This document shows positions 1 to 27,268 of a DNA stretch of 54,938 nt, in pieces. The notes below the pieces were generated by a model, which saw only the letters and a program-made list of their open reading frames with translations, was not told where the DNA came from and searched no databases. The DNA comes from Candidatus Omnitrophota bacterium (GTDB lineage Bacteria; Omnitrophota; Gorgyraeia; JAFGGP01): positions 1 to 54,938 of the forward strand of contig JAFGGP010000017.1 of NCBI GenBank assembly GCA_016930485.1. The letters are read 5' to 3'. Position numbers and translations under genes: made by a program. Each line of letters opens with the position of its first letter. Positions within the stretch are counted from its first letter, which is position 1.

Positions 1-3000
1 CTCTGACGGCATCTGTCCTGTATTACCCCAGTCATCGGTGACTGATTCACCGGCATCCTTGAGCTGGTAATCGTAGCTCACCGTGGTAGTCTGTGAATAG
101 TTTCCGCCAAAGATATCCACGCCTGAGGAGGTCGTGGTCTGCGAGGTCATCACGGCCTGGCCATGCATAATCGTATATATCTGCTCACCTGTCGTATAGG
201 AAGTATCTCCGAAGATATTGGTGGATGAGCCCTCGATGACACCATGAGCAGCAACCATCCCCCATCCTGACCTTATGGCCCCGCCTGCCGTTGCCCCCGG
301 CACTCTCTGATCCCCAACCTCTATAGGCCCATATTCATATGTTACCGTGGTCGTCTGATTCCATGCGCCGCCGAAGATATCAATGCCTGATGATACAGTT
401 GTCTGACTGACAAGGATTGCCTGACCATGAACAATCATGTACTCTTGAGTGCCTGAATTGAACGTGGTATCACCAAAGATATTGGTTGAAAAACCCTCGA
501 AAGAGCCTGTAGCACTCATTAATCCCCAGTAAAGCCTGGTAGTGGGCAGGCCTGTTTCAGAATCCAGTATCGGCTCTTCGTGATATATAGGATTCTCACT
601 GTTATCGCTCCGTTTAAGCTGACCATTAGGATCGATAAACCCGTATTGATAGACAACGGTCGACACCTGTTCCCAATAACCTCCAAACATATCATACCCC
701 GAAGAGGTGGTAACGGTCTCAACGGTATCTATCGCCCCGTAGATAGTAGGTAATACCCTGCCTTCGGCCTCAAAGGTTGTATAGGTTGTTTTACTCTCCG
801 CGGTGGTAGTATTGACGTCGCCAAAGATATTTTGAGATTCGGTCGTAGTGAGAGTTCTTGTGGCAAAGGCGCGTCCCTTAACAATGGTATATTCCGTCAC
901 TGTGGTCGTCGTTACAGTAGCACCGAATATATCCACCGTCGTGGTAATAAGGGGCTGAAGTTCTTCAACATTCACGAGGGCCGCTATTGATTTCTTCCCG
1001 TCTTCTGTTTCGTATTCACCATAGGTGTGCCTGACAATCGACGGCTGGGAGCTCGCCCATGTTTTGCCAAATATGTCCTCTCCCACGCTCTCGGTTATAA
1101 TATCGAGATAATCCATTACCCCCAAAATCGTCCCGGCCCTGTCCAGAATCTCGCCGTATAGGGCTTCGTCAAACTGGGCAATCTCATTCCACTCGGGCCT
1201 CTCTACCTCTTTATAGTGATACTGGCTGGTTGAAACGCTGGTATTCAGGGAACCGAAGACATCCATGGCAACGGTTGTGCTCACAACCACATCGCTGAAC
1301 GGTTTTCCGTTAATAAGTATATAGGTGGTTGAGGTGGTGGTGGTAACCGGATCACCGAAGATATTGACGCTTTCGGTGATCATTGGTTCGATTTCTTCAA
1401 CCGCGATCAATCCGGCAATTGTGGTCTTGCCTTCTTCCGTTGTCAGTTCCCCGAACTGGTGCCTTACCACCGACGGCTGCAGCGTCTCCCACGTCCTGCC
1501 GAATATATCAAGGCCTCTGTTTGAGCTGGTAATTTCGATATAATCCTGAACACCGAAGAGGGTCCTACCGTCATACTCAACCGTCTTGTAGTGGTATTCG
1601 CTGACCGTCTGCGAGTACGTATCAGAGCCAAAAATATCAACCTGGACAGAATCGGAAGTAACCACATCGGCAAGCGCTCTGCCTTTCACTATGGTGTAGG
1701 TGGTGGAGGTAGTGGTTGTTGTTAAGTTCCCAAATAAGTCTTGGGACAGCGTCACACCGCCAACAGCAGTTACCACCTCTTCTGTCCAGGGACTAATCAA
1801 ACTGACAGAAAGGTCCTCGGCCTTCTTAAGGAGACCCTGCCAGACCTTTCCTTCTTCGTTCACATAGAGCGGATCCGGAACCGTCTCAGGATCTTCGGTC
1901 CCGTTTGTATATTCGTAACGCATTGCGGTACGGGTCATAAAAGCGGTCCCGTACATATCAATCCCCAGGGTCGTAGTCACGGTCTCCAGGGGTTTTGACT
2001 GATTGTTGATGGCTAGGTAGTAGGTCTGGGTGGTGACGGCGCTCAGATTGCCGAAGATATCGCTGCTTATCGTAATGGTACCACCCACCCTCTCAAGAAA
2101 CTGCTCGATAAGGAGGGGATCGACATCCAGGAGCTCGCTCAGATCATCCGGAAGCACTATATCAGTTCCCGGAATCTGGATATTGGCGTCAAGATCCCTG
2201 GCACTCATGAGCAGACCGTGCCATAGCTCCCCGCTAGGCATCAGATAGATCGGATTGAGGTGCGCCAGCGGATCAAGACCGACCTCGCGCATGAGGTATG
2301 CCAGCTGCTCTGACAGGATCATCTCGTGCCACTCTTTTTCCTCAGGGAGATTATCCAGAGAGATCCCCAACGCCCCCTTCAAAAACTCTATGCGATCCGC
2401 GAAGGTCATGTGAGGCCAGTTTTCAGGAAGCGAGATCACCGTTGTACCGCCGGTAGTCTGGATTTCGACCGACCCGCCTGACTTGAGGAGCTCGAGCACA
2501 GCCGCCTTCTGGGCGTCGGTCATGCTGTCCCAGAGGATAGCCTCACCGTCGATGATCACATATTGCCCGCTGAGCACCTGGTCGATATAGTAATCGGTCA
2601 GGTCGCTTATCATCAGATAAACGTCTGAAAAGATAGCCGGGTCCTCCGCCCCGGTTGTATACCCGTATTCAAGAATGTTTCTGCTGAAATAGACACTTCC
2701 GAAGATGTCCGCGCCAACCGTATCAGTCGCCACAATCCCAGGTTTTGCCTGCCCGTCAACAATGGCATACGTGGTACTGGTTCTTACTATGGAGGAGCTG
2801 CCGAAGACATCGCTCCGCAGGGTCAGGCCACCGATCCCGGTAATGGTGTTGCCGGTCTCAGGGTCGTCAAGGCTTACTTCCATATCGTAGGCATTCTTTA
2901 AGAGGCCGATATAGACAGAAAGGTCTTCGGGGTTGACGTATCTCGAATCAGGCAGGTCAAAGGGGTCCTCGGTACCATCGGTATACTCATAGCCGACACG

Positions 3001-3770
3001 GGTAATCGTGATTGATGTCGACCCGTCCAGGCTGGTTCCGGTCGTCGTCGTAGTCGCCTCAATAACCTTTGCCTGGCCGTTGACAATGGCGTAGACATTG
3101 TCGGTGTGGGAATGCTGTTCATTGCCGAAGAGATCCGTGGTGATTGAATCGCTGTAGCCGTCGGCCCCGGTCAGATGGCCGACGCTGTCATACTCATAGT
3201 GCGTCACCGAGGTAGTGTCGGTCACTGATCCGTCGAGGCTGAACATAGTACTGGTCCCGCTTGCCTGGGACATGTGTGCCTCTGCCACCTGCGCCTCGTT
3301 GATAATAATCACGTAGTCGAAATCCGTCTCACCCTCGTGTTTATTTCCGAAGATATCGGAACCCGTGTATTCGTCGCCACCGTCCGAGCCTATCAGAAGA
3401 AGCGTATTGGGATCATAATCAAACGTCTGCCAGCCTATCTTGTGCTGTGTAGAGCCATCCATATTCTGAATGTCAGTCACGCTGTTAACCCGTACCACCT
3501 TTGCCTGACCATACATAATCTCGTATATATCGGTGGTAACCGTGGTGTAAGTATTACCAAATATGTCGAGGCCGTTCGTAACGCTTCCGCCCTCGGCCCC
3601 GATCAAGATGCCGTTTTCATCATAGAAGTACTCCACCCAGCTCACCGTATGGCTGGTAGAGCCGTCGGCATTCCAGCGGTAGGTATCCGTATCATACCGG
3701 TTAGTGTTACCGTCGGAATTGAGGTACTTGGTATAGTAGGTCTCGTTTGTGTTGCCAAAGTCGTCTTCGC
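1..3770 (-). repeat. Array of about 20 degenerate D/N-[IVLM]-F-G beta-repeats in the giant protein
   Basis: Recurrent units such as DIFGNTYTTVTTDIYEIMYGQAKVV, DIFGNKHEGETDFDYVIIINEAQV and DLFGNEQHSHTDNVYAIVNGQAKV. A few more copies at about 9790-10260. Confidence 0.85.
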
Positions 3771-6700
3771 CGCTTTCATAGCCTGTTTCCTCATCCGGCG
3801 TATCGGGCGGGGCAGGTGGTTCAGGCGGAGCCGGAGGTTCGGGAATGGGGGGCTCCTCGCTAACCGGTTCGATGCCAATATTTCTGACCCGTATCTCACC
3901 TTCCCAGTTGCCGTCCCAGCTGTCATTCGAAGCCACCTTGATGCCCAGTTGCAGTATCTGGTTCTCATCAAACTCGGCACCCTCGGGATAGGTGTCACCC
4001 TCTGAAAAGTCGAATGTCACTTTGACCCACGTCCCTGTCTCAAGATTGACCCACTCGCTGTAGCGTGATACCCATACGGTCCCGTCAGAGGTCTTGGCAA
4101 AAAGCTGGACCCCTGAAGGCGCTTCTTCAGAGCCGAATCCCGGATCCTCGACCATAATCTCTATAGTGAACTGCTTGTCGGTGTAATCGGTCGGGGCAAT
4201 AGTGAGATAGACCTCACCTTTCCGATAACCATCTACCGGACCATAGCTGCCGTACAGTCTCAGCTCATCATCGCCTGTTTCTATAACGCTCAGGGCCTTG
4301 CTGTCACCCTCGGTATAGCCCTGCCAGTCGCTTGAGGTCGATATATCCGGCTCCTCGGCCTCTTCTGCTTCCTGGGCCAGAGGCTGTTCCGGCTCTTCGG
4401 CCGGAGGTTCAACTGCAGGCGGTTCCTCTGCCGGCGGTTCAACTGCAGGCGGTTCCTCGACCGGAGGCTCTTCACCTCCCATAGTCTCTTCCGGTTCCTC
4501 AGCACTTAAACGGGCAAACAGATCTTCACTGTGACCATCGTAGGGCTCAAGATGGAGAACGAGATTGTCGCCTTCATAGTAAAGATACTCAACTTCGGCG
4601 TTTTCTGCTTCAATGGCTGCATAGATGTTATCAAGATCCGTTGCCTCAACTGTTCCTACATATACCCGGTTACCTCGGTGATCTTCTACAAAGACCCCGC
4701 CAACAGCCGCCCCGAATATCGGAGTTGTAATCGCCCCGGTAACAGGCATACCACCAACCGTATCATCCGGCACATACGCCCTGAAGGCCCTCTCGAGCGC
4801 CGCATCATACTCTGGCGTTCCTTTCTGAGATAGAATGGTGGATAGACCTGCCGTAGTTACAGCGTCGAACCACGCCTCAAGTCTCTCAGGAGCAACAGTT
4901 GTCACCTCCGGAATCACTATCAGGGATGAAGTTAGTTCAGGAAATTCTGCCTTGAGTGAACCCAGCACCGCCTCGGTAAGCCTGGCAAATTCTTCTGCGT
5001 CTATGCGTTCAAGCGGCTCTAGCACAAACTCAGGAAGGGGTTTTGAAGCATCCTGCGGGGTAAGCAAATAGAGGCCAAGAGGGGCCTCGCCCAGAGGCGT
5101 TTCTTTTGTAACTTCATCAGGAGTCAAGCCTTCCGGTGTGAATGACTCGCCCGTTGTTATGTCCATTTCCGGGGCAGCAATCATAAACGTCACCAGCTGA
5201 TACTCGGGAAGTTCCTTCGTAAGATATTGAGAAATCTCATGATAGGGAATTATTGTAAAATCGGCCTCCCTGTCCTCCTTTGGGATATCGCGAATCAGGA
5301 TCAACCGCGGGATAAACTGGACCGGGGTGGTTTCTGGATACGACGGCAGCTTAAGCAAGAGCACTGCACCTGCAGCATCCTGCAACAGAGAACTCTCCTG
5401 CAGCTTTTTAACCGTATCAATAACACTTATCTTAAATGATGGAACTAACTTAGCAACTAAATCCTCAACCGTATCATGAGGGCGCAGTGGTTCGCTCAGG
5501 GCAATCGGGAAAAGAGAGGGTGATATGGAAATAAGAACTGGGATAAACTCGTCAGGTGTAATTTTGGGTACCGGAGGCGCACGAAGGGTAATCACAATCC
5601 CCTGCCACTGGCCCAGGAAATCGCTCTGTGACACCTCATAGAGATTGCCGTCGATTTCCCTAACCAGCACAGTACCGTCCTCTTTAATCCCTTCAATCAC
5701 CACCCAGTGGTCTCCGCCCACATGGGCAATCACCGGCATATCCGCCTGTCTCAGTGCTTCAAAGCTGGTGCGGACCGTAACCATATCAAGGCCGAACTGC
5801 TCGGCAACTTCCCTAATCGCGATGTCCGAGGTATAGACAATATCAAATTGTGCCGGCCTGAGGATGCCGTTAATGATGTCGCTCACGATGGTCTGTGCCG
5901 CTATCTGTGTGGTAGAGACCTTGATACCGAACATCTCGAGTAACCGCTGCAGGGCCTTGGCGCCGCAGCTTATCACAAACTGACCCATCTTTGAGAGCCA
6001 GTCAACCACATTCTTGATGACTGCCAGATCAAGGATGCCTTCCTTAAACTGGTGCGCCTTCTCGGCGGCAATGTCAAGGAGTGTCTTTTCAACCTCATGG
6101 ACTACCTCGGCCGCCTGGTCAAGAAGCCCCTCGGCAGTCTTGTGAAAACTGAGAAGTAGCGTCACATTGCCTTCTGAATCCACGCGGGACTCAAGCACCA
6201 CCCGCGATTCAAGACCGTCCCTTATAACCGAGGCAGTGCCATCGCCATAGACGGTGATGTCAAGAGGGTTGCCGTCTCTGTCTGTGGTCCTGATATGCAG
6301 GTTGCCGTCCGAATCCCTCCACGTCCCATAGGTATCTGCCGAGAGCCCATCAGCACCCAGGGCAGGAAGGAATAATTTCATCTCGCCGTCCTCCTCTTTT
6401 AATATATAGGAAGACGACCCGTCTGCCGACAAACCGATGAGAATCGGGGTATGATAGCCGGCGCTGAGAAACGTCCCGGTAGCAACACCACCTACCTGAG
6501 GATGAGAATCGCTGCCTTCGCGGTTTTCTCCTTCCGGACCGCCGGGGAACGACGTGCCAATGTTCCCCTTATCATAATAAAACTGGGCATTCATGCGAGC
6601 AGTGCCTTTTGCAGTTGTAGCTTTGATAGTGGCGCCTACCATGGTATCCGGCAAGATATAAAGGGAGCCGTGAATAATGCCACCACCCGGGTCATCAATC

Positions 6701-9700
6701 GGGTCCTCTGTCGGGTCATCAGGGGGTACATCGTCCCATGGGTCATCATCCTGCGGGATATTAACCGTCGTGGGATTAAACTGATGTACTGAAAACCCTG
6801 AGAAGGTGTGCGATGCAGAGCCGCTATAGGCGGAGCCGCCCCCGCCCAAACCATACTTTCTGTATACCTCGACCGAGTACCATTTCTCCCCTGGTTCATC
6901 CTCATCGTCGTCAGCGCCGCCAGCTTCGTCATCGTCGTCATCGGCATCATCGTCGTCATCGTCGTCATCCGGAGGGTTATTGCCACCCGGGTCATCCGGG
7001 TCAAATTCCGGGGCACCGGCCGGTGCTACCAGGTCAATAAGTTTGGCAGTCTGAGTAAAGTCGTCCAGCAGTAGTGCGGCTGCCAAGGCCTCATTCGGGG
7101 TAAGGCCGCTGTCGCTGTTCTCTGCGATATAGGCCGCCTCCATCGCCCGCACCCACGCCTTTACCGCAGCGGCCGATATGGCCGATGAGGTGTCTCCTGA
7201 CGGGTTCATATTGACATGAAAGGCAAAATCGGCCACCTGGACCTTGGTAATTTTTTCACCATACTGGTATTGTGTCAGCTCTTCCTCCCAGGAAAGATCT
7301 TCCCAGAACTGTTGAATCGTCACCGATACACCGGTTGTCTTGTTTGTGCCTGTCACCTCTGTGAAGTCTCCGACTGAGCCATTTACGTTGCCATTGTAAT
7401 ACCCGACAAGTTGATACCAAGTGTCAGGTATATTGGGGTCAAGACCCTGGGGATCGATGTAATCGATATAGGAAGCTTGATTGCTGGGGTCAACAATAAT
7501 ATCAATGGTGGTCCCGGGATTGGCCGGGTCGTCAACCGTTACGGCATACGTGTAATTCATCGGGTTAACATTAGAGCCTTTCCCGGCATTGCTCCCATCC
7601 AAGGCGACATAGTCCCATTCACCAGCCTGGTGCGTAACCAGTCTGGTAACCGGGTTGCCATATTGATCACGGACAACCTCTCTGTTAACGTCGTACTGCC
7701 CCCTCTCCACCTTGACCGTAATGACCGCGTCCTTGGTCGGGTCAGGCTCGCCTGCCTCGTTCTCCCCGTAGGTAATAGTCATGGTAAAAGTGTACGTTAC
7801 CGTGTGTACCTGATTCCTATAAATGCGGAAGTCGCTGGACGGGTAAGCTGTGTGGCCTGTATCAGGGTTTTCATAGCGGGTGCCGGTGCCCCAGCTCTGT
7901 CCGGCAAGGTCGACCTCCACGGTTTTTGTCCACTCATAGCCGTTTTCAACCGGCTTGACTGCCAAGGCCGTACCCATCTGACCCTCATCAAACTCACCGA
8001 GTGGCGGATTCCACTCCAGGAGATTGATAGGAGGTGAGGCCACGGTCGGGTTGGTGCCATTTGCAAGCTTTGCAGAGGTATCCAGCACGCCGAAGGCCAG
8101 AAGCTGTATAAAACCGAACCCGTACGGGTCGGTGGTCCAGGCAGAATATGTCGTATTGGCTTTGTTAACGGTGTTGTCCATAAAAGTCGAACTAGGTCCC
8201 CAATGGTCTCCAAGATAATTGGGCGCAGACAGAGTCGAGACATTGCCCCACTGCTTGCCAAGGGAGTTTGAGGCAATCCACAGCTGACGGTCACTGGGGT
8301 CAATGTCATCTCCTACTACCCTCTTCACCGAGGCATACATCATGCCCAGGCCGCACGCCTTGACACACATGGCATCGATATTATATGCCAGGCTCCCGCC
8401 GCCCGTAGTACCGGTATAGGCACCAGTATTGCCGTCGCCTACTGCTGAATAGGCCTCGATCCTTGCCACAAACGCTGATTGGCCCTGCTGATTGCTCCAG
8501 GAATAATAATCCGCATACTCAATACCCGGTATGGCCTCACCACCTCCCCCCACATTATCCCTGGCGACTATCACGCACCTGCCCTGACCGCCAGTTTTTG
8601 ACATATACACATCAAGCCCATCAGCAAGTGTGAACGAGCTGCCGTCAGGGCCTGACTCATCAACCCAGACGTAGCGGCCTGTCGGGGTGGTGTCGCCGTT
8701 CCGGTAAAACTCTATAGTGTAATCCCCAAACTGGAAGTACCCGTACCGCGCGCCGTTTCCATAGTCATACCAGGTTCTGCCATTAGTCGATTGACCTATC
8801 CTATTGCCGTCGCCATCATACAAATCCCAGGCGATAATGCGGCCATTTGCCGGATTGATGCGTGGGTCCCAATGGCTGTTAGGGGGTGCCCAGGGGGGGA
8901 GGGGTGGCTCAGGTGGCGGCGTGTAATCATCATCATCATCATCGGCACCGCGTATCTGTTTCATGACCTCATCGGGGATTTCCCTGGCACCAGCGGGTTT
9001 TTCGCTGCTCAACACCACACCCTGCCACTTCTCCAGAAATTCCTCTTTTGTATAGATAATCACCTCGCCGTTTGTCTCAAGGACCTTGACCAGGTTGTCG
9101 GTCGCGCCAAGGACAATGACATAGTGGGTCGGGCTGAAATGCGCGATGACCGGCTGAGTAAGATTGACCAGTTCGTCATAGGTAAGTTCGAGGCCGTACA
9201 GTTCCACGCCATAGAGTTTTCCTACCTCCCTGAGCGATGACGCCGAAAGAATCAGCCTGCCGCTGGTAAGCGGGGTAATGACCCCGGTAAAGATATCGGT
9301 AAGGATGGTCTTGATCGCGATATCCGCGTAGTCGGTACCGGCAACGCCCAGTTGCATCAAGAGCCGCTGGATCGCCACAAAGGCGCTTGACCCGAAGTGC
9401 GCGTCCTGGTGCTCGAGCCAGTCGATGATAGCCCGCACACCCAGGGCAGTAAGCGAGACCGCGATATCCATAGTCAGGCCGAGTGCGGCAAGCATGGCCC
9501 GCTGCTCCTCAGGAGAAAGGGTGATAAAGCGCTCGAGCACCTCCCTCACCCGGTCAATAATGGTCTCGCGTGCCTCCTGCATCCGGGCATATTCATCGGA
9601 TGCCAGAAGTTCGCGGCGGACATCTTCGAGTGTCTTATCGCCCGAGAGGATTGCCTCCCGATACTGATCAAATTCCTGGGTCGTCGGGTCCCTCCCGAGG

Positions 9701-12075
9701 ATATCCTGGAAAAACTCAAATACCCTGGTTCTCACTAACTCTTCCGAGGGTTGCTGCGGTTGGACATCATACGGCTCCGTATCGCCGGACACGCCGCTCA
9801 CCGAGCGGACGAGCTTTGCCTGACCCAGGATAATCCGGTACTCTTCTACCGAATGGGAGCCGAACTCATTGCCGAAGATATCGTAGCCATGCTGGTCTTT
9901 TTCTCCGTTTGCGTCGATCAGCCTGCCGTCATCATCATACTCATAGGTGACCCAGCCGGTGCCGAAGGTGTCGCTCCCGTCGATCTTGAAGGCCTCTGAC
10001 TCATAGTCGTAGCGCAGTTTCTTGGGCTGGCCGAGGATAATTGCATACTGTACATCGCCGAAGGTATGTACGGTGCTGCCGAACATATCTTCGCTGTTCG
10101 TCTCCTCTGTCCCCGAGGCACCGACGAGGTAGCCGTTCCCGTCATAGGTGTAGTCGATGATCGTATGTGTGGTGCCGAAGGTGCCGTCGATCTCGTTATT
10201 GTATGAGGTGGTATCGGTCTGGATAAGGGTGTAGAGATGTCCGTTGATAATCTCGTAGCGGTTGACTACGTCGGTGCTGTGCTCTGACATAAAGAGCTCA
10301 CTCATGCCCTCTTCGTGGTAGCTCAGGATCTCGCCCCGCCTACCGTACAGGGTTTCTTTGCGGTCTGTGACATAAGGCATACCGCTGTGCTCCCCATCCT
10401 CATGATACCCGATAAGCTGGCCGATATCATTGTAGAGAATGTCCTTCCTCCAGAGATAGTAGTCGCCGAAGACCTCACTCTCCCCTGCCTCGGTATAGCC
10501 GAGCATCTGTTTCTGATCGTTGTAGAGCACCTCGTTAAAAAGACGATAGTAGTGGCCCTGGTCCTGCGTCCAGCCGATCTCGCGGTACTGCATGAGCCGG
10601 TCATACCGGTCATACTCTGCCTCTGTCCAGTCCCTGATCGAATCAGAGAGGCGCTCCTTGTCAACCTCTTCATGATAGCTTATAACCCTGCCGAACTCAT
10701 CGTACACCGCCCCGCTCCAGCTCAGGCTATAGTTTCCTTCGCCCTCGTTCCAGCCGATCTCGCTATAACTGAGGAGCTGATAGACCTTGTTGTACTCGTG
10801 GGCCTCCCAGCTCTTCCTCTGGGTATCGCCCATCGCGCCCACCGTTTCCTCCTCATAAGTCAGGGCCTGGGAAAGCGTGTCATAAGTGGTGTTGACCCGG
10901 GTGGTCAGGGTAGTAAAATCAAGCAGGCTGCCGTCTTCCCCCTGGCCAAAGGTATGAACGTTCTTGACAAATGACACCATGCGGTTGTGTTCATCATAAC
11001 CGTCGTTTGAAAACTGGGTGGTGGTGGTAACGCCGAAGTGATCGGTGACCGACTCGTTATAGCTCAGCAGGCGGTGTTTGCTGTCGTATACCGCATCTGT
11101 CCAGGTTTTGGTAGTGGCATTGCCGAGGCCATCGGTCAAAATCTCTTTATACCCGGTCATGCGACCCAGATGATCATATGTTCCCTCGGACCAGTCGCGC
11201 ATCAGGTGATTGCCGTGTGGGTCGATGATGTCTTCATGAAAACTGGTTAACTGACGGGTGCCATTGTATGTCGCGTTTGAGAAATAGGTGGTGGTAACCA
11301 GGCCAAGGACATCGGTCGTGCGCTTGGTGTATGTCTGCATATTCTTGCCACGGTAGGTGGCGTCGAAAAACTCGGTTTTCGTCACGTTGCCATTGGGGTC
11401 TATCACGGTCTCGGTGTACTGGGTCATATGCTTATTAGCGACCGTATTGACGGTGCCATAAAACACAGAATCAGGGGTGTAGACCGCGCCGGTCCACACG
11501 CCGTGCCAGACATTGCCGAAGGGATCCGTATCATCGTATTCATAATGGATCAAGAGGCGGCGGGCGTCGTATTCCATGTTGTACATGTGGCGTATTTTGG
11601 TGGGGCCCTGAGGGTTCTCGATTTTCTGATTTTCGATCTCAATAACAAAACCGTCCCGCATCCAGGTAACCTGTCCGTCTTCACTCAAGCTGTAGCGCAG
11701 CCCCTTCTGGCCGGCTATCTTCTGTTCCAACTCCTCGGCCTTCTTTTTGAGGGCCGCGTCAATTTGTTTCAGTTCGACCGCTTCCTGGACGACCTCCTGG
11801 TCGAGCTTGACCTTGCCTTCCTCAATCTTCTGACCGCGGAGCTGCTCAATCTCGGCGCGTTTCTGGATTACGTCATTTTGGCGTCTAATAATCTCTCTTA
11901 TTTCTTGGGGTGTTAAAAAACCCGAGGTTCCTCTGCGGTCTCCTCGGGTTCTAAATAGACTGGACAGGTCGTTCCCGGCAGCCCAGGCTACGTTGGACCA
12001 CAGGAACGTCTGAATCAGGATAATCGCAATAATGCGTATCCAGGGTCTACTATGCGGTTCTTGTGCCTCGATCAC
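1..12075 (-). CDS. Giant secreted multidomain protein, >4025 aa, 3' end outside window (YD/RHS-like and DIFG repeats, two C39-like domains, CBM-like domain)
   Basis: GTG at 12075 preceded by GGAGGG. N-terminus MIEAQEPHSRPWIRIIAIILIQTFLWSNVAWA is a Sec signal. Manual translation stays open in this frame over the segments read, including bases 1-60 (...KDAGESVTDDWGNTGQMPSE). The ORF track lists no stop-bounded ORF in this frame. Confidence 0.93.
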   Translation of the reverse strand, partial: MIEAQEPHSRPWIRIIAIILIQTFLWSNVAWAAGNDLSSLFRTRGDRRGTSGFLTPQEIREIIRRQNDVIQKRAEIEQLRGQKIEEGKVKLDQEVVQEAVELKQIDAALKKKAEELEQKIAGQKGLRYSLSEDGQVTWMRDGFVIEIENQKIENPQGPTKIRHMYNMEYDARRLLIHYEYDDTDPFGNVWHGVWTGAVYTPDSVFYGTVNTVANKHMTQYTETVIDPNGNVTKTEFFDATYRGKNMQTYTKRTTDVLGLVTTTYFSNATYNGTRQLTSFHEDIIDPHGNHLMRDWSEGTYDHLGRMTGYKEILTDGLGNATTKTWTDAVYDSKHRLLSYNESVTDHFGVTTTTQFSNDGYDEHNRMVSFVKNVHTFGQGEDGSLLDFTTLTTRVNTTYDTLSQALTYEEETVGAMGDTQRKSWEAHEYNKVYQLLSYSEIGWNEGEGNYSLSWSGAVYDEFGRVISYHEEVDKERLSDSIRDWTEAEYDRYDRLMQYREIGWTQDQGHYYRLFNEVLYNDQKQMLGYTEAGESEVFGDYYLWRKDILYNDIGQLIGYHEDGEHSGMPYVTDRKETLYGRRGEILSYHEEGMSELFMSEHSTDVVNRYEIINGHLYTLIQTDTTSYNNEIDGTFGTTHTIIDYTYDGNGYLVGASGTEETNSEDMFGSTVHTFGDVQYAIILGQPKKLRYDYESEAFKIDGSDTFGTGWVTYEYDDDGRLIDANGEKDQHGYDIFGNEFGSHSVEEYRIILGQAKLVRSVSGVSGDTEPYDVQPQQPSEELVRTRVFEFFQDILGRDPTTQEFDQYREAILSGDKTLEDVRRELLASDEYARMQEARETIIDRVREVLERFITLSPEEQRAMLAALGLTMDIAVSLTALGVRAIIDWLEHQDAHFGSSAFVAIQRLLMQLGVAGTDYADIAIKTILTDIFTGVITPLTSGRLILSASSLREVGKLYGVELYGLELTYDELVNLTQPVIAHFSPTHYVIVLGATDNLVKVLETNGEVIIYTKEEFLEKWQGVVLSSEKPAGAREIPDEVMKQIRGADDDDDDYTPPPEPPLPPWAPPNSHWDPRINPANGRIIAWDLYDGDGNRIGQSTNGRTWYDYGNGARYGYFQFGDYTIEFYRNGDTTPTGRYVWVDESGPDGSSFTLADGLDVYMSKTGGQGRCVIVARDNVGGGGEAIPGIEYADYYSWSNQQGQSAFVARIEAYSAVGDGNTGAYTGTTGGGSLAYNIDAMCVKACGLGMMYASVKRVVGDDIDPSDRQLWIASNSLGKQWGNVSTLSAPNYLGDHWGPSSTFMDNTVNKANTTYSAWTTDPYGFGFIQLLAFGVLDTSAKLANGTNPTVASPPINLLEWNPPLGEFDEGQMGTALAVKPVENGYEWTKTVEVDLAGQSWGTGTRYENPDTGHTAYPSSDFRIYRNQVHTVTYTFTMTITYGENEAGEPDPTKDAVITVKVERGQYDVNREVVRDQYGNPVTRLVTHQAGEWDYVALDGSNAGKGSNVNPMNYTYAVTVDDPANPGTTIDIIVDPSNQASYIDYIDPQGLDPNIPDTWYQLVGYYNGNVNGSVGDFTEVTGTNKTTGVSVTIQQFWEDLSWEEELTQYQYGEKITKVQVADFAFHVNMNPSGDTSSAISAAAVKAWVRAMEAAYIAENSDSGLTPNEALAAALLLDDFTQTAKLIDLVAPAGAPEFDPDDPGGNNPPDDDDDDDDADDDDDEAGGADDDEDEPGEKWYSVEVYRKYGLGGGGSAYSGSASHTFSGFSVHQFNPTTVNIPQDDDPWDDVPPDDPTEDPIDDPGGGIIHGSLYILPDTMVGATIKATTAKGTARMNAQFYYDKGNIGTSFPGGPEGENREGSDSHPQVGGVATGTFLSAGYHTPILIGLSADGSSSYILKEEDGEMKLFLPALGADGLSADTYGTWRDSDGNLHIRTTDRDGNPLDITVYGDGTASVIRDGLESRVVLESRVDSEGNVTLLLSFHKTAEGLLDQAAEVVHEVEKTLLDIAAEKAHQFKEGILDLAVIKNVVDWLSKMGQFVISCGAKALQRLLEMFGIKVSTTQIAAQTIVSDIINGILRPAQFDIVYTSDIAIREVAEQFGLDMVTVRTSFEALRQADMPVIAHVGGDHWVVIEGIKEDGTVLVREIDGNLYEVSQSDFLGQWQGIVITLRAPPVPKITPDEFIPVLISISPSLFPIALSEPLRPHDTVEDLVAKLVPSFKISVIDTVKKLQESSLLQDAAGAVLLLKLPSYPETTPVQFIPRLILIRDIPKEDREADFTIIPYHEISQYLTKELPEYQLVTFMIAAPEMDITTGESFTPEGLTPDEVTKETPLGEAPLGLYLLTPQDASKPLPEFVLEPLERIDAEEFARLTEAVLGSLKAEFPELTSSLIVIPEVTTVAPERLEAWFDAVTTAGLSTILSQKGTPEYDAALERAFRAYVPDDTVGGMPVTGAITTPIFGAAVGGVFVEDHRGNRVYVGTVEATDLDNIYAAIEAENAEVEYLYYEGDNLVLHLEPYDGHSEDLFARLSAEEPEETMGGEEPPVEEPPAVEPPAEEPPAVEPPAEEPEQPLAQEAEEAEEPDISTSSDWQGYTEGDSKALSVIETGDDELRLYGSYGPVDGYRKGEVYLTIAPTDYTDKQFTIEIMVEDPGFGSEEAPSGVQLFAKTSDGTVWVSRYSEWVNLETGTWVKVTFDFSEGDTYPEGAEFDENQILQLGIKVASNDSWDGNWEGEIRVRNIGIEPVSEEPPIPEPPAPPEPPAPPDTPDEETGYESGEDDFGNTNETYYTKYLNSDGNTNRYDTDTYRWNADGSTSHTVSWVEYFYDENGILIGAEGGSVTNGLDIFGNTYTTVTTDIYEIMYGQAKVVRVNSVTDIQNMDGSTQHKIGWQTFDYDPNTLLLIGSDGGDEYTGSDIFGNKHEGETDFDYVIIINEAQVAEAHMSQASGTSTMFSLDGSVTDTTSVTHYEYDSVGHLTGADGYSDSITTDLFGNEQHSHTDNVYAIVNGQAKVIEATTTTTGTSLDGSTSITITRVGYEYTDGTEDPFDLPDSRYVNPEDLSVYIGLLKNAYDMEVSLDDPETGNTITGIGGLTLRSDVFGSSSIVRTSTTYAIVDGQAKPGIVATDTVGADIFGSVYFSRNILEYGYTTGAEDPAIFSDVYLMISDLTDYYIDQVLSGQYVIIDGEAILWDSMTDAQKAAVLELLKSGGSVEIQTTGGTTVISLPENWPHMTFADRIEFLKGALGISLDNLPEEKEWHEMILSEQLAYLMREVGLDPLAHLNPIYLMPSGELWHGLLMSARDLDANIQIPGTDIVLPDDLSELLDVDPLLIEQFLERVGGTITISSDIFGNLSAVTTQTYYLAINNQSKPLETVTTTLGIDMYGTAFMTRTAMRYEYTNGTEDPETVPDPLYVNEEGKVWQGLLKKAEDLSVSLISPWTEEVVTAVGGVTLSQDLFGNLTTTTTSTTYTIVKGRALADVVTSDSVQVDIFGSDTYSQTVSEYHYKTVEYDGRTLFGVQDYIEITSSNRGLDIFGRTWETLQPSVVRHQFGELTTEEGKTTIAGLIAVEEIEPMITESVNIFGDPVTTTTSTTYILINGKPFSDVVVSTTVAMDVFGSLNTSVSTSQYHYKEVERPEWNEIAQFDEALYGEILDRAGTILGVMDYLDIITESVGEDIFGKTWASSQPSIVRHTYGEYETEDGKKSIAALVNVEELQPLITTTVDIFGATVTTTTVTEYTIVKGRAFATRTLTTTESQNIFGDVNTTTAESKTTYTTFEAEGRVLPTIYGAIDTVETVTTSSGYDMFGGYWEQVSTVVYQYGFIDPNGQLKRSDNSENPIYHEEPILDSETGLPTTRLYWGLMSATGSFEGFSTNIFGDTTFNSGTQEYMIVHGQAILVSQTTVSSGIDIFGGAWNQTTTVTYEYGPIEVGDQRVPGATAGGAIRSGWGMVAAHGVIEGSSTNIFGDTSYTTGEQIYTIMHGQAVMTSQTTTSSGVDIFGGNYSQTTTVSYDYQLKDAGESVTDDWGNTGQMPSE
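3871..4335 (-). other. Carbohydrate-binding-module-like beta-sandwich in the giant protein
   Basis: GVQLFAKT..WVSRYSEWVNLETGTWVKVTFDF..FDENQILQLGIKV..WEGEIRVRNIGI, flanked by Pro/Glu-rich linkers; pattern resembles CBM11/17/27-type modules. Confidence 0.55.
4401..4467 (-). repeat. 30-bp tandem repeat encoding an EEPPAVEPPA linker
   Basis: ccgg(a/c)ggttcaactgcaggcggttcctc occurs twice in tandem. Confidence 0.85.
5587..5985 (-). other. Peptidase C39 domain 2 (catalytic Cys and His intact)
   Basis: QFVISCGAKALQRLL...PVIAHVGGDHWVVI...VLVREIDG...DFLGQWQGIVI; Cys codon 5965-5967, His codon 5707-5709. Confidence 0.85.
9010..9410 (-). other. Peptidase C39-like domain 1 (Cys replaced by Phe, presumed inactive)
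   Basis: QDAHFGSSAFVAIQRLL...PVIAHFSPTHYVIVLG...EEFLEKWQGVVL; aligns with domain 2, Phe codon 9394-9396 at the Cys position. Confidence 0.8.
9580..9730 (-). other. DUF4214-like helical motif in the giant protein
   Basis: FFQDILGRDPTTQEFDQYREAILSGDKTLEDVRRELLASDEY matches the LGRxP...S-x-E-[FY] pattern. Confidence 0.55.
10300..11600 (-). repeat. YD/RHS-like repeats of about 30 aa in the giant protein
   Basis: WSEGTYDHLGRMTGYKE, WTDAVYDSKHRLLSYNE, WSGAVYDEFGRVISYHE, WTEAEYDRYDRLMQYRE, LYNDIGQLIGYHE. Confidence 0.8.
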
Positions 12076-12239
12076 TGTCCCTCCACCACCACTTTATCTC
12101 ACAATATAATCCATTTATTAATTGCCTATTATCTGGTAGTATTGATCTAAAGAGTTCTTTTTTATGCATTTTTGTTAAACTTTTTCATACTTAAAATGAA
12201 GGTTTTTAAAAGATTTTATTTAGTGCCTAAAAAAATAAC

Positions 12240-12280
12240 AAAAAAACCGGACTGCTTTACTCTTCTTTCGGCAGCCCGGC
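12240..12280 (-). terminator. Intrinsic terminator (riboswitch expression platform)
   Basis: Minus strand GCCGGGCUGC...GCAGUCCGGU followed by a U-run; the 5' arm is the 3' end of the aptamer. Confidence 0.85.
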
Positions 12281-12349
12281 TTTCCTAACTCATTTGGATC
12301 CGCGGCTTTGCGCCCCGCACTTCCGTGTGGTTTGCCTTTGTCGGGAAGT
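12262..12349 (-). ncRNA. c-di-GMP-I (GEMM) riboswitch
   Basis: Minus strand CGACAAAGGCAAACCACAC-GGAA-GUGCGGGGCGCAAAGCCGCGGAUCCAAA...GGAAAGCCGGGCUGCCG matches the GEMM consensus (GGCAAAC, GNRA loop, GCAAAG, CUGCCG). Confidence 0.92.
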
Positions 12350-12372
12350 CTGTCTTTTCAAAGATCACCTTA

Positions 12373-12401
12373 AGTATGCCATATTGTATATATAGTGTCA
12401 A
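12373..12401 (-). promoter_or_regulatory. sigma70 promoter of the riboswitch/giant gene
   Basis: TTGACA-17 bp-CATACT with TG extended -10, just upstream of the aptamer. Confidence 0.75.
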
Positions 12402-12730
12402 GAGGGAAAAAGGTGGAAAATAAAAATTTTTTAACTTTTTTTAAAACATTTTTCTATGTAGAGGACTTTTTTTTAATTGATATGGGTTTTTTTGCTTTTT
12501 TTGGCTCTCCTTATCCTGTGTCCTAGGCTTTTATTATTTTTTCATAGGTTCTCTAAAACAATAGTATTTCTCTTTAGTTTTGCATAATCATGCTTAAGAA
12601 TGCTACCAATGAAATAAGGTGACAATGGGGGATTGAGAGGTGATGAAACAGGCGGAAAAGCAAACGCGCATTATATTTTATGCGATGAACTGTTAAACGT
12701 AACTATTTTTAAATAAACGTCTTATAAAAA

Positions 12731-12751
12731 TGATACGGTTATGATACGGTT
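12731..12751. promoter_or_regulatory. Tandem TGATACGGTT direct repeat (candidate operator)
   Basis: TGATACGGTT-A-TGATACGGTT spans the RND stop codon; the same pair occurs at 24760 and 25316. Confidence 0.55.
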
Positions 12752-15855: not shown

Positions 15856-15878
15856 GTGTTCATTTCCCTATCGATGCA

Positions 15879-16421: not shown

Positions 16422-16424
16422 GAA

Positions 16425-17306: not shown

Positions 17307-17382
17307 TTTCAACTCCCATGATTGGTTCGCGGGCTACTCGGATTCTACGAGTTCGCGAGTTATTTTTTTCGTCCGTTCTTCT

Positions 17383-17412
17383 AATCGCTATCCGCTAGTC
17401 GCTAAACGCTAT
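17383..17412. repeat. Heptamer-periodic intergenic repeat (annCGCT x4)
   Basis: aatcgct atccgct agtcgct aaacgct. Confidence 0.7.
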
Positions 17413-17415
17413 AGC

Positions 17416-27255: not shown

Positions 27256-27268
27256 CGAAAGGGGCGGT

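What the first reader, a model, noticed from the sequence alone, without database searches (positions are those of the whole stretch)
1..12075. Hidden giant ORF (>4025 aa) absent from the ORF track
One minus-strand frame is open from GTG 12075 to the window edge. All short ORFs listed in 1-12 kb are shadows of it. Order of parts: signal peptide, coiled coil, YD-like repeats, DIFG repeats, DUF4214-like motif, dead C39, GA site, passenger, active C39, helical region, CBM-like domain, DIFG array. Giant genes are reported in Omnitrophota and linked there to host attachment or predation; that role here is inference.
Basis: partly seen in the sequence, partly recalled or inferred. Interest (0 to 1): 0.8.

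Follow-up and report, generated by a model that had tools for sequence, protein, structure and literature searches.

The report
Giant riboswitch-led C39 surface protein gene
This is a real gene, cut short by the assembly, for a giant secreted repeat protein of an Omnitrophota-type bacterium; the kind is already described, but it sits behind a c-di-GMP riboswitch and carries its own protease-plus-cleavage-site module.

Summary
Minus-strand frame 12075..1 is open for 4025 codons, starting at a GTG with a GGAGG Shine-Dalgarno. It ends only because contig C31 ends. An independent assembly of the same reads reproduces it with 0 differences and breaks at the same high-copy repeat.

It belongs to a collinear family of "partial" C39-domain giant proteins from Candidatus Omnitrophota MAGs, a kind already in print. 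The first C39 is a Cys-to-Ser variant (Ser897, His984 kept), the "helical region" is unsupported, and "CBM-like" and "YD-like" have fold-level support only.

- A c-di-GMP-I riboswitch (12345..12266) with a competing terminator sits in the leader. Strong same-strand copies precede 16 of 21 relatives whose N-terminus is present.
- Each C39 domain is typically followed by a double-glycine-leader-like motif (G at -2 in 126 of 152 copies). Here it is IPDEVMKQIRGA(1044), and homology to RHS-C39 proteins stops there.

Best reading: a c-di-GMP-induced, Sec-exported, self-processing giant surface protein. Its role in attachment or attack is inferred. The gene is a new member of a known kind; the regulatory link was not found in print.

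The parts
12373..12401 (-). Promoter-like site TTGACA-17-CATACT with a TG extension, upstream of the riboswitch
   Evidence: 10 of 12 matches. The scan as a whole is not above shuffles (3 found, 2.3 expected), so this is a candidate only.
12266..12345 (-). c-di-GMP-I clan riboswitch aptamer in the 5' leader of the giant gene
   Evidence: RF03167 scores 62.8 bits (cut-off 59) over the full model. RF01051 scores 64.8 bits (cut-off 35). 9 of 17 predicted pairs covary across 19 copies.
12229..12283 (-). Intrinsic terminator (13-bp stem, 15-nt loop, U-run). Its 5' arm is the 3' strand of aptamer helices P2 and P1, which makes it the expression platform of an ON switch.
   Evidence: The MFE fold and the sequence. 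The same design appears in 3 of 3 relatives' leaders folded.
12073..12084 (-). Shine-Dalgarno GGAGG (12084-12080) and start codon GTG (12075-12073)
   Evidence: In-frame TAA at 12096-12094.
1..12075 (-). Giant ORF, 4025 codons, 3' end cut by the contig end (protein P0001)
11977..12075 (-). aa 1-33: Sec-type signal peptide (R10, R14; hydrophobic 15-33; AWA, with predicted cleavage after A32, inferred)
   Evidence: Hydropathy, helix 11-33, conserved in the family consensus. No SignalP was available.
11710..11910 (-). aa 56-122: two long helices (putative coiled coil)
   Evidence: H56-92 and H95-122, at block-mean pLDDT about 39-65.
10306..11700 (-). aa 126-590: YD-like beta-hairpin array with a 30-aa period
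   Evidence: 10 Y[DNE]xxxx[LMVI]xx[YF] motifs. Hairpins at pLDDT 70-90 for residues 126-425, while 425-596 is modelled poorly. Foldseek top hit is Rhs 8qja_D, E 6.5e-13, TM 0.07.
9787..10290 (-). aa 596-763: first two DIFG units (D[IM]FG ... Y.II.GQ[AP])
   Evidence: pLDDT 74-92. Internal repeats with the C-terminal array.
9409..9744 (-). aa 778-889: helical pre-domain, including a DUF4214-like motif. It forms one conserved unit with the first C39.
   Evidence: Pfam DUF4214 E 0.046, 14.2 bits, below cut-off. Helices. The homology block q770-1044 is shared with RHS-C39 proteins.
9001..9408 (-). aa 890-1025: C39 domain 1, Cys-to-Ser variant (Ser897, His984, Glu1000)
   Evidence: Pfam 46 bits against 22. 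Column analysis. VIA Z 15.3, rmsd 2.1 A over 119 aa to LahT 6mpz_B. Codon AGC.
8944..8979 (-). aa 1033-1044: double-glycine-leader-like motif IPDEVMKQIRGA. Cleavage is predicted after Ala1044 and is followed by DDDDDD.
   Evidence: Family consensus L-S-D-x-E-M-K-x-I-R-G-[ASG], with G at -2 in 126 of 152 copies. 7 of 8 alignments to RHS-C39 proteins end at 1043 or 1044. Block-mean pLDDT is 87-88 for residues 1011-1040, 52 for 1041-1050 and about 26-31 beyond.
6124..8943 (-). aa 1045-1984: acidic and Pro-rich linker, then the 'passenger' of unknown fold, with poly-Asp at 1703-1727
   Evidence: No Pfam or NCBIfam hit. No usable atlas hit for 1045-1700. Only about 1100-1340 (8 loci) and 1755-1990 (1 locus) have homologs.
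5566..6123 (-). aa 1985-2170: C39 domain 2 with Cys2037, His2123 and Glu2140, and no G-[GAS] site after it
   Evidence: Pfam 59 bits against 22..
   Evidence: No homologs. Single-sequence model at pLDDT 30-45, mixed helix and strand.
3865..4323 (-). aa 2585-2737: all-beta, CBM-like or galactose-binding-like domain (lead only), flanked by Pro/Glu-rich linkers
   Evidence: Atlas neighbours Exop_C, CBM27, CBM30 and SGBP_B_XBD at 0.93-0.94. Foldseek on a pLDDT 50-67 model hits MAM and CBM27/28/22/29/15/16/4 at E 8e-5 to 3e-3.
1..3738 (-). aa 2780-4025+: C-terminal DIFG repeat array (20 of the 22 motifs), running off the contig
   Evidence: Shared with P0002-P0013.

Best explanation
The frame is a genuine gene, truncated by the assembly, for a giant secreted or surface repeat protein of an Omnitrophota-lineage bacterium.

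Shown:
- It is a member of a collinear family of C39-domain giant proteins.
- A canonical c-di-GMP-I riboswitch aptamer sits in its leader.
- The terminator hairpin uses the aptamer's 3' strand.
- This riboswitch-gene unit is conserved in most relatives.
- Each C39 domain in the family is typically followed by a double-glycine-leader-like motif.

Inferred mechanism:
1. At high c-di-GMP the aptamer folds, the terminator cannot form, and transcription reads into the 12+ kb gene.
2. The product is exported by Sec.
3. A C39 domain cuts after Gly1043-Ala1044. This separates the N-terminal Rhs-like hairpin module (about residues 33-1044) from the downstream part: the unknown 'passenger', the second C39, the CBM-like domain and the DIFG array.
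4. In this protein the site-adjacent domain carries Ser897 instead of Cys. The cut is therefore made either by a Ser nucleophile or by the distal Cys2037 domain.
5. The processed protein acts at the cell surface, in attachment to or attack on a partner cell.
For: Gene reality.

Family: the HMMER search found 174 proteins at E<=1e-3, and the top hits P0003-P0012 are collinear with P0001. 9 of the 10 proteins looked up have source names; 8 name Candidatus Omnitrophota/Omnitrophica or Ca. Gorgyraea, 1 only 'bacterium'; 8 are flagged partial.

Riboswitch:
- Over the cut-off for two clan models, with canonical GCAAAG where the GGC model has GCGAAG.
- Mutually exclusive terminator in the window and in 3 of 3 relatives folded.
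- Of 21 related loci with the N-terminus and at least 150 nt upstream, 16 have a same-strand, full-length aptamer (58.9-70.9 bits) ending within 70 nt of the start. 2 have weak hits and 3 have none.
- 9 of 17 pairs covary.
- In the same genome, copies also precede the C6 giant ORF, a pilin-like cluster and predicted secreted proteins. A sub-threshold copy precedes the C9 giant ORF.

Processing:
- C39 fold at Z 15.3.
- Cys column C128, S23, V1 of 152; His in 149 of 152; G at -2 in 126 of 152.
- The first copy in 8 of 8 collinear relatives is C-H-(D/E/Q) plus I-x-G-[AS], while last copies lack the site.
- The motif fits LSXXELXXIXGG, which the BAGEL paper's table lists alongside C39 protease (PMC1538908).
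- Homology to RHS-C39 proteins ends at 1043 or 1044 in 7 of 8.
- Confidence collapses just after the site.
- StbD shows Cys-dependent C39 cis auto-processing after Gly-Gly in a large exoprotein (preprint 10.64898/2026.05.07.723447, section 7).

Export and surface:
- Conserved signal peptide.
- Only three 19-residue windows with mean hydropathy of 1.6 or more.
- Only 4 Cys in 4025 aa.
- CBM-like leads.

Precedent for an ON-type c-di-GMP-I riboswitch in front of an adhesin: Bc2-Cap (PMC4933901, abstract).
Against: - The C-terminus is missing, so anchoring, the export route beyond Sec and any terminal effector are unknown.
- No cleavage, ligand binding or expression has been observed.
- The site-adjacent C39 has Ser, not Cys, and the Cys-bearing copy lacks an adjacent site.
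- Solved C39 domains that lack the Cys (HlyB CLD 3zua, Z 14.5) are described as C39-like domains, not as proteases.
- 3 of 21 relatives show no riboswitch.
- A second promoter-like site (12241-12213) lies at the terminator, and the promoter scan is not above shuffles.
- ON logic rests on thermodynamic folds only.
- Rhs likeness is local only: TM 0.07 and no Pfam RHS hit.
- The CBM-like call rests on a model with mean pLDDT 45.9.
- About 1,600 residues (about 1340-1755, 2190-2530 and most of the passenger) have no homolog or fold assignment.
- In 20 other genomes of the class, 19 of 20 top riboswitches precede ORFs of 77-688 aa. The riboswitch marks surface or secreted genes in general, not giant genes as such.
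Confidence: 0.6

Rival explanations
1. It is a polymorphic-toxin-like contact weapon. Rhs-like hairpin arrays form the carrier, the C39 plus G-A module is a releasing peptidase, and the payload is the dark 'passenger' or a toxin domain in the missing C-terminus.
For: - The template of trafficking domain, repeats, releasing peptidase and C-terminal toxin, plus a Tox-PL-C39 domain, is in Zhang et al. 2012 (PMC3482391, passages).
- Distant relatives P0273-P0280 (3192-4941 aa) share only the q770-1044 module. The Pfam hits on record list RHS_repeat in 5 of the 8. The module is followed by roughly 810-1030 unrelated residues, and the alignment ends at the G-A site in 7 of 8.
- The top Foldseek hit is a T6SS Rhs protein.
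- StbD is a C39 toxin with auto-processing.
Against: - No toxin or immunity domain was found in 4025 residues.
- What follows the site here is at least 2,980 residues with a second repeat array, unlike a compact toxin tip.
- Pfam RHS_repeat does not hit, and a closed shell is not modelled (TM 0.07).
- The downstream genes, where an immunity gene would lie, are off the contig.
Confidence: 0.22
2. It is an unprocessed structural adhesin or fibre. Both C39 domains are non-catalytic binding or chaperone-like modules, as in the HlyB C39-like domain, and the G-A motif is a docking element that is not cut.
For: - Ser897 replaces the nucleophile in domain 1.
- Domain 1 superposes on the HlyB C39-like domain as well as on active peptidases (3zua Z 14.5 against 6mpz Z 15.3).
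- 23 of 152 copies carry Ser, and 20 of those keep the G-[GAS] site. This fits binding without cleavage.
- West-Roberts et al. note the chaperone-like role of such domains (passage).
Against: - 128 of 152 copies keep Cys together with His.
- The first copy in 8 of 8 collinear relatives has a full triad next to the site.
- Domain 2 here has Cys2037, one of only 4 Cys in 4025 residues.
Confidence: 0.15
3. The aptamer senses a ligand other than c-di-GMP, because cmscan's clan competition assigns it to the c-di-GMP-I-GGC variant family.
For: RF03167 is the reported best clan member at 62.8 bits, over its cut-off of 59.
Against: - RF01051 scores higher in bits (64.8) and far above its cut-off of 35.
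- At the one core column where the variant model differs (GCGAAG), the window and all 10 aligned copies have the canonical GCAAAG or GCAAAA.
- That this column names the variant is recalled, not taken from a call.
Confidence: 0.08
4. It is an assembly chimera or a decaying pseudogene, not a functional gene.
For: The contig breaks in a repeat with depth above 1000. All relatives are also fragments.
Against: - 4025 codons without a stop.
- A second assembler gives the same 12.4 kb with 0 differences.
- Order of parts is collinear with relatives.
- The leader, signal peptide, catalytic residues and motifs are conserved.
Confidence: 0.03

Closest known systems
C39-domain giant proteins of Omnitrophota (West-Roberts et al. 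2023, bioRxiv 10.1101/2023.11.21.568195; the 24-protein PF03412 architecture cluster of Nielsen and Lui 2026, bioRxiv 10.64898/2026.06.07.730766)
   Same: Same phylum label. Very long ORFs that break assemblies. C39 domains in the N-terminal part, after a signal peptide. The published suggestion that C39 may cut the giant protein (passages). The NCBI relatives are named 'cysteine peptidase family C39 domain-containing protein, partial'.
   Different: The full length here is unknown (at least 4025 aa). None of the enzyme domains listed for Archaeovorins was found. Only three hydrophobic windows were found, against the many transmembrane segments described. The word 'riboswitch' occurs 0 times in either main text. 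Their supplements were not seen.
Bc2 c-di-GMP-I riboswitch upstream of the collagen adhesion protein Cap in Bacillus thuringiensis (PMC4933901)
   Same: A class I aptamer in the 5' UTR of a surface adhesion gene. The ON switch works by anti-termination (abstract). The design matches.
   Different: Different phylum. The gene controlled here is at least 12 kb and of another family. Nothing has been tested experimentally here.
Double-glycine peptidase domains of PCAT/ComA/LahT ABC transporters (PDB 6mpz, 4ry2, 3k8u)
   Same: Same fold (Z 14-15, rmsd about 2 A). Over the Pfam PF03412 cut-off. Cys and His at the aligned columns in domain 2. The substrate-like motif fits LSXXELXXIXGG.
   Different: Not fused to an ABC transporter. 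The domain is embedded in a Sec-exported giant protein. The substrate motif lies in cis, about 20 residues after the domain. Domain 1 has Ser for Cys. The acidic residue is Glu in both copies.
StbD, a CdiA-like protein of Citrobacter rodentium with a C39 toxin that auto-processes (bioRxiv 10.64898/2026.05.07.723447; PDB 8ssk)
   Same: A C39 domain inside a very large exoprotein. Cis auto-cleavage after a Gly-Gly-type motif in an adjacent linker, dependent on Cys (section 7). Structural match at Z 11.9.
   Different: The StbD site lies upstream of the domain and the peptidase itself is the toxin. Here the site lies downstream and the domain is internal.
Rhs/YD-repeat polymorphic toxins (for example T6SS Rhs, PDB 8qja; template in PMC3482391)
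   Same: YD-type motifs, beta-hairpin repeats and the top Foldseek hit. A peptidase module before a variable downstream part. Distant relatives combine Pfam RHS_repeat with the same C39 module.
   Different: No Pfam RHS hit. A 30-aa rather than a roughly 20-aa period (the latter is recalled). No closed shell modelled. No toxin tip seen.
HlyB C39-like domain (PDB 3zua)
   Same: C39 fold without the catalytic Cys (Z 14.5).
   Different: Ser, not Tyr, replaces the Cys (the Tyr is recalled). His is kept. It is not part of a type I secretion ABC transporter.

Membership tests
Peptidase C39 (PF03412) | Profile match over the curated cut-off | tested here: met
   Domain 1 scores 46 bits and domain 2 scores 59 bits, against a cut-off of 22.
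Peptidase C39 (PF03412) | Papain-like C39 fold that superposes on solved members | tested here: met
   Domain 1: Z 15.3, rmsd 2.1 A, 119 aa to 6mpz_B; Z 14.2 to ComA 3k8u. Domain 2 was not folded.
Peptidase C39 (PF03412) | Catalytic Cys | tested here: inconclusive
   Domain 2 has Cys2037 (met). Domain 1 has Ser897, codon AGC (not met). The column is C128, S23, V1 of 152.
Peptidase C39 (PF03412) | Catalytic His and acidic residue | tested here: met
   His984 and His2123 (column H in 149 of 152). Glu1000 and Glu2140 (column D 104, E 33).
Peptidase C39 (PF03412) | N-terminal domain of an ABC exporter (PCAT type) | tested here: not met
   No ABC transmembrane or ATPase domain in the ORF. NCBIfam exporter models match only their peptidase part, at 20-33 bits against cut-offs of 500-853.
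Peptidase C39 (PF03412) | Cleavage after a double-glycine-type motif | not testable with these tools
   A motif that fits the consensus is present in cis. Cleavage itself needs an experiment.
c-di-GMP-I riboswitch (RF01051, clan CL00126) | Covariance-model score over the gathering cut-off, full length | tested here: met
   64.8 bits against 35, model positions 1-87. RF03167 scores 62.8 against 59.
c-di-GMP-I riboswitch (RF01051, clan CL00126) | Helices kept by compensatory change | tested here: met
   9 of 17 predicted pairs show changes on both sides in 19 copies. That alignment was fitted to model R1.
c-di-GMP-I riboswitch (RF01051, clan CL00126) | 5' leader position with an expression platform | tested here: met
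   Same strand, 190 nt before the start. The terminator shares the aptamer's 3' strand. The same holds in 3 of 3 relatives folded.
c-di-GMP-I riboswitch (RF01051, clan CL00126) | Binds c-di-GMP | not testable with these tools
   Needs in-line probing or ITC.
c-di-GMP-I-GGC variant (RF03167) | Variant nucleotide in the core (the model has GCGAAG) | tested here: not met
   The window and all aligned copies have GCAAAG or GCAAAA. That this column defines the variant is recalled.
RHS/YD repeat (PF05593) | Profile match | tested here: not met
   No hit at E<=5 in the slice covering aa 130-790, nor in the whole protein.
RHS/YD repeat (PF05593) | Beta-hairpin repeat fold like solved Rhs proteins | tested here: inconclusive
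   Foldseek rank 1 is 8qja_D, E 6.5e-13, probability 1.00, but TM 0.07 and rmsd 28 A.
RHS/YD repeat (PF05593) | Closed shell with terminal autoproteolysis and an encapsulated toxin (recalled) | not testable with these tools
   The C-terminus is missing and no coordinates were available.
Omnitrophota giant proteins, C39 group | Encoded in an Omnitrophota genome | tested here: met
   8 of the 9 relatives with a source name are labelled Candidatus Omnitrophota/Omnitrophica or Ca. Gorgyraea. Class-level relative G014 is identical over 12,326 bp to a record labelled Candidatus Omnitrophota. gltX alone is undecided.
Omnitrophota giant proteins, C39 group | Length in the published 'giant' range (10 kAA and above in Nielsen and Lui) | not testable with these tools
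   Only 4025 aa are on the contig.
Carbohydrate-binding module / galactose-binding-like | Profile or fold match | tested here: inconclusive
   No Pfam hit. Atlas neighbours at 0.93-0.94. Foldseek CBM and MAM hits at E 8e-5 to 3e-3, on a model with pLDDT 50-67 in that part.
DUF4214 (PF13946) | Profile match over the cut-off | tested here: not met
   14.2 bits against 23.2, E 0.046.
Autotransporter ('passenger' in the strict sense) | C-terminal beta-barrel translocator | not testable with these tools
   The C-terminus is missing. Nothing of the kind occurs in the 4025 residues.

The most novel reading that the evidence does not exclude
The C39 domain plus its downstream double-glycine-leader-like site is a self-contained releasing-peptidase cassette. 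Omnitrophota (and RHS-bearing relatives) use it to cut giant Rhs-like surface proteins after export. In this family the whole weapon or adhesin is licensed by c-di-GMP through a vertically inherited ON riboswitch. In the window's protein the cassette has split its labour: a Ser897 domain holds the site and the distal Cys2037 domain cuts it. That would directly link second-messenger sensing to the deployment of giant proteins in host-dependent nanobacteria.
Probability: 0.15. Interest if true: 0.75.

Novelty: new member of a known kind. Interest (0 to 1): 0.5.

Why it matters
Giant genes of Omnitrophota are a current puzzle. Their regulation and maturation are unknown, and published ideas rest on domain lists.

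This locus gives two concrete, testable handles that apply to a whole family.
- **Regulation:** a conserved c-di-GMP-I ON riboswitch in the leader. An 80-nt RNA and a terminator can be assayed in vitro without cultivating the organism.
- **Maturation:** a built-in C39 substrate motif marks a precise predicted cleavage site (Gly1043-Ala1044 / Asp1045). It can be checked by expressing a 320-residue fragment.

The riboswitch fits the published observation of pilZ genes next to giant genes and GGDEF domains inside them. It suggests that c-di-GMP governs when these very costly proteins are made.

The survey adds that c-di-GMP-I riboswitches are common in this class. 85 of 101 sampled genomes have one over the cut-off, with up to 17 matches per 1-2.7 Mb genome.

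Tried and rejected
- **Missing C-terminus.** tblastn of P0001, whole and in 8 slices, against all 57 contigs found only C31 itself.
- **PDB by sequence.** The C39#2 slice hit only designed repeat proteins through a 35-residue stretch, which is spurious. The C39#1 slice hit nothing.
- **Atlas search of the passenger (aa 1045-1700).** No usable hit.
- **gltX taxonomy.** The best non-self hits are 50-55% identical, and the names mix Ca. Brocadia/Planctomycetota with Ca. Omnitrophota. This is undecided.
- **RND operon as exporter of the giant protein.** Rejected. AcrB, MFP and TolC-like genes lie upstream, but they are separated by a terminator-like site, a promoter-like site and the riboswitch. 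AcrB synteny recurs in only 2 of the 36 loci searched (L009, L068).
- **'Riboswitches of this class mark giant genes in general'.** Rejected. Only 1 of 20 top riboswitches from 20 other genomes precedes a long ORF (996+ aa, off its contig). The other 19 precede ORFs of 77-688 aa. 6 of the 20 had under 2.6 kb of downstream sequence.
- **GGC-variant reading.** Rejected on the core nucleotide.
- **Complex prediction of C39#2 (1985-2175) with the site segment (1021-1062).** No verdict: score 0.01 against a mark of 0.34, and the controls were not run. This is neither for nor against.
- **Expression.** No RNA holder was listed. RNA runs X2 and X3 gave only two 32-37 nt pieces on the poly-Asp repeat. 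This says nothing about expression.
- **VIA second look.** The Rhs entry is not among the 50 rows shown. The hairpin arrays align to generic beta-barrels (TOM40, porins, TonB receptors) at rmsd about 8 A. This does not exclude Rhs.
- **Second fold (aa 2190-2750).** Too poor (mean pLDDT 45.9) to say anything about 2190-2530.
- **The search of earlier findings.** It was closed, so no earlier findings were used.
- **Supplements.** They may list this family, or riboswitches.

Full report
**Observation**

With open ends allowed, the ORF list gives one frame, 1..12075 on the minus strand: 4025 codons, GTG start, 3' open. Its translation has no stop. GGAGG lies 4 nt before the GTG, and an in-frame TAA lies 7 codons upstream, so this GTG is the first possible start. 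The window is the first 54,938 bases of contig C31 of a 1.92-Mb, 57-contig genome (89% complete, 0.42% contamination). The frame therefore ends at a contig end.

The default ORF listing leaves out frames that run off the source. It shows 32 ORFs of 61-243 aa in this span instead. That is why the gene looked 'hidden'.

One public DNA run, X1 (probably the source sample), holds the stretch. Its independently built contig of 16,494 bp covers window 136-12500 with 0 other letters and 0 gaps. It stops where 31-98 nt unitigs reach depth above 1000. The truncation is therefore a repeat-induced assembly break, not a biological end. No other contig carries the missing part.

The genome holds 21 stop-to-stop frames of at least 1200 codons. 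12 of them run off a contig end, including one of 9878 codons on C44.

**What the protein is**

Pfam finds only two Peptidase_C39 domains, at 46 and 59 bits against a cut-off of 22. NCBIfam finds only the peptidase parts of bacteriocin exporters, far below their cut-offs.

A full HMMER scan with residues 1001-2200 found 174 proteins at E<=1e-3. The best, P0003-P0012 (1478-3237 aa), are collinear with P0001: N-terminal module, YD-like and DIFG block, first C39, proximal passenger to about residue 1330, pre-C39 segment plus second C39, and DIFG array. Residues about 1330-1800 and 2250-2770 have no counterpart.

Of the 10 proteins looked up, 9 have source names; 8 of these name Candidatus Omnitrophota/Omnitrophica or Ca. 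Gorgyraea atricola, 1 only 'bacterium'; 8 are flagged partial. Only class-level relatives of the genome are held, and 2 of those 40 carry the repeat family. One of them, G014, is identical over 12,326 bp to a record labelled Candidatus Omnitrophota. gltX alone is undecided at 50-55% identity, with mixed Brocadia and Omnitrophota names.

**Parts, checked one by one**

- **Signal peptide.** Basic residues, a hydrophobic stretch at 15-33 and AWA. It is conserved in the 21-sequence alignment. No predictor was available.
- **Helices 56-122.** Present, at low confidence.
- **YD-like block.** 10 motifs with a 30-residue period. They are modelled as regular beta-hairpins at pLDDT 70-90 for residues 126-425. 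Foldseek ranks a T6SS Rhs protein first (E 6.5e-13) but with TM 0.07, and Pfam RHS_repeat does not hit. 'YD-like' therefore stands as a repeat-level likeness only.
- **DIFG repeats.** 22 motifs, 2 before the first C39 and 20 from residue 2837 onward, often in pairs 34 residues apart.
- **DUF4214.** Sub-threshold.
- **C39 domain 1.** It superposes on LahT, PCAT1, ComA and the HlyB C39-like domain at Z 14-15, rmsd about 2 A.
- **The 'helical region' (2190-2530).** No homologs and a poor, mixed model.
- **Residues 2585-2737.** All-beta. Atlas neighbours (Exop_C, CBM27, CBM30, SGBP_B_XBD at 0.93-0.94) and Foldseek hits to CBMs and MAM domains both point to a CBM-like jelly roll. The model is weak, though, at pLDDT 50-67.
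- **Overall.** The protein has only three 19-residue windows with mean hydropathy of 1.6 or more, and only 4 Cys.

**The C39 modules**

I aligned 152 C39 domain copies, taken from 166 phmmer domain hits in the fetched proteins. The 14 copies with under 100 aligned positions were dropped.

- The nucleophile column is C in 128, S in 23 and V in 1.
- His is present in 149 of 152.
- The acidic column is D in 104 and E in 33.

P0001 domain 2 has Cys2037, His2123 and Glu2140. Domain 1 has Ser897, His984 and Glu1000. Ser897 is codon AGC, one base from TGC.

About 20 residues after the domain the family has a motif, L-S-D-x-E-M-K-x-I-R-G-[ASG], with G at -2 in 126 of 152 copies. It fits the double-glycine leader consensus LSXXELXXIXGG, which the BAGEL paper's table lists alongside C39 protease (PMC1538908, one passage). 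In P0001 the motif reads IPDEVMKQIRGA (1033-1044), followed by six Asp.

In 8 of 8 collinear relatives the first copy has C-H-(D/E/Q) plus I-x-G-[AS], and the last copy has Cys but no such site. Ser copies mostly keep the site (20 of 23).

Eight longer proteins (3192-4941 aa) share only residues about 770-1044 with P0001. The Pfam hits on record list RHS_repeat in 5 of them. 7 of the 8 alignments end at residue 1043 or 1044, and roughly 810-1030 unrelated residues follow in those proteins.

In the model, block-mean confidence is 87-88 for residues 1011-1040, 52 for 1041-1050 and about 26-31 beyond.

Together this marks a C39-plus-site cassette with a predicted cut after Ala1044. A Cys-dependent cis cut after Gly-Gly by a C39 domain inside a large exoprotein has been shown for StbD (preprint, abstract and section 7). 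Cleavage here is inferred.

**The leader**

Between the upstream AcrB gene and the start codon lie four elements:

- a promoter-like site at 12401-12373
- a c-di-GMP-I clan aptamer at 12345-12266
- a 13-bp terminator hairpin
- a U-run

RF03167 scores 62.8 bits against 59, and RF01051 scores 64.8 against 35. At the core column where the GGC-variant model has G, the window has the canonical A.

The terminator's 5' arm is the 3' strand of the aptamer helices, so the two folds exclude each other. This predicts an ON switch. Three relatives' leaders fold the same way.

**Conservation of the riboswitch-gene unit**

A scan of one genome per species returned 35 related loci. A model built from 10 aptamers, nine from this genome and one from G014, was run over them.

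23 loci contain the gene's N-terminus. I set aside L047 (the training copy) and L048 (only 93 nt of upstream sequence), which leaves 21.

- 16 have a full-length, same-strand aptamer of 58.9-70.9 bits ending within 70 nt of the start.
- 2 have weak hits (about 29 bits, 35-36 bits by Rfam) about 620 nt upstream.
- 3 have none, and Rfam finds no other riboswitch there.

9 of 17 predicted pairs show compensatory changes.

In the window's own genome, 9 copies pass the RF01051 cut-off. They precede this gene, the 3069+ aa C6 protein (Ig-like, fn3 and FecR domains, a different family), a pilin-like cluster and several predicted secreted or membrane proteins. A sub-threshold copy precedes the 3581+ aa C9 protein.

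Across the class, 85 of 101 sampled genomes have at least one copy over the cut-off.

Against a general rule: in 20 other genomes the best-scoring copy precedes an ordinary ORF (77-688 aa) in 19 cases, and a long, truncated one in 1.

**Literature**

West-Roberts et al. 2023 (passages read) describe the following:

- C39 domains near the signal peptides of giant Omnitrophota proteins
- the suggestion that these domains cleave the proteins
- pilZ genes downstream
- GGDEF domains inside

Nielsen and Lui 2026 (passages) report a 24-protein PF03412 architecture cluster. Neither main text contains 'riboswitch' (0 occurrences).

Full-text searches for Omnitrophota + riboswitch and for Omnitrophica + c-di-GMP returned only papers that, by their listings, do not make the link. 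Supplements were not seen.

The regulatory precedent is Bc2-Cap in B. thuringiensis (abstract). The polymorphic-toxin template and Tox-PL-C39 are in Zhang et al. 2012 (passages).

**Verdict**

The gene is a new, divergent member of an already described kind. It is 22-49% identical in BLAST segments to its relatives and has lineage-specific inserts and a Cys-to-Ser first C39.

What is new is family-level: a conserved c-di-GMP ON riboswitch, and a built-in C39 substrate site that predicts where the protein is cut.

The function at the cell surface, whether attachment or contact-dependent attack, remains inference. The missing C-terminus is the main gap.

Noticed in passing
G000 contigs C44:3-29636(-), C9:83442-94289(+), C49, C6:1-9231(-), C29, C42, C47, C15, C8, C18, C54: The 1.9-Mb genome has 21 frames of at least 1200 codons, and 12 run off contig ends. 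One on C44 is 9878 codons with its 3' end still open. The C6 protein has Big_6, Glucodextran_B, fn3 and FecR domains. The C9 protein has no Pfam domain.
   Followed up: partly
G000:C45:15051-15150 and 15314-15413 (-): Two c-di-GMP-I aptamers in tandem (61-64 bits by RF03167, 70-71 by RF01051) lie upstream of a 359-aa predicted membrane protein.
   Followed up: no
G000:C35:58422-58520 (-): The best RF01051 hit in the genome (75.2 bits) precedes a cluster of short prepilin-like genes, whose N-termini have a TLIELI-type motif.
   Followed up: no
window 26038-29777 (+): FIST sensor, GAF histidine kinase and a response regulator with a GGDEF domain. This is a candidate diguanylate cyclase module 14 kb from the riboswitch.
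   Followed up: no
window 12739-25226 (-): RND efflux operon: a TolC-like protein with an N-terminal AMIN domain, a HlyD-type adaptor, a 1428-aa AcrB with about 370 extra C-terminal residues, a 295-aa ORF with no Pfam hit, and a second AcrB. AcrB lies before the riboswitch-led DIFG gene also in L009 and L068.
   Followed up: partly
L009 (G022:C11) 5548-7566 and 7224-15959 (+): In this relative the giant gene appears as two overlapping ORFs (672 aa and 2912+ aa) behind a 45-nt partial aptamer match (33 bits). This may be a frameshift, a sequencing error or a real split.
   Followed up: no
window 110-165: Unitigs of 31-98 nt with depth 1134-1300, against 11 for the contig, sit where both assemblies break. 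This is a very high-copy short repeat inside the DIFG array, or one shared across organisms in the sample.
   Followed up: no
window 30867-35241 (-): Trehalose-phosphatase, a GT4 glycosyltransferase and a GH65 phosphorylase lie in a row. This looks like a compatible-solute or disaccharide cluster.
   Followed up: no
L060-L066, L069, L058, L061, L062 (records labelled Elusimicrobia): DIFG-type repeats (matches to q566-837 only) also occur in very long ORFs, up to 6277+ aa, of genomes labelled Elusimicrobia. No riboswitch hit was found there.
   Followed up: partly
class survey, G001-G100: c-di-GMP-I riboswitches are unusually dense in this class: up to 17 matches in genomes of 1-2.7 Mb, and 85 of 101 genomes over the cut-off.
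   Followed up: partly
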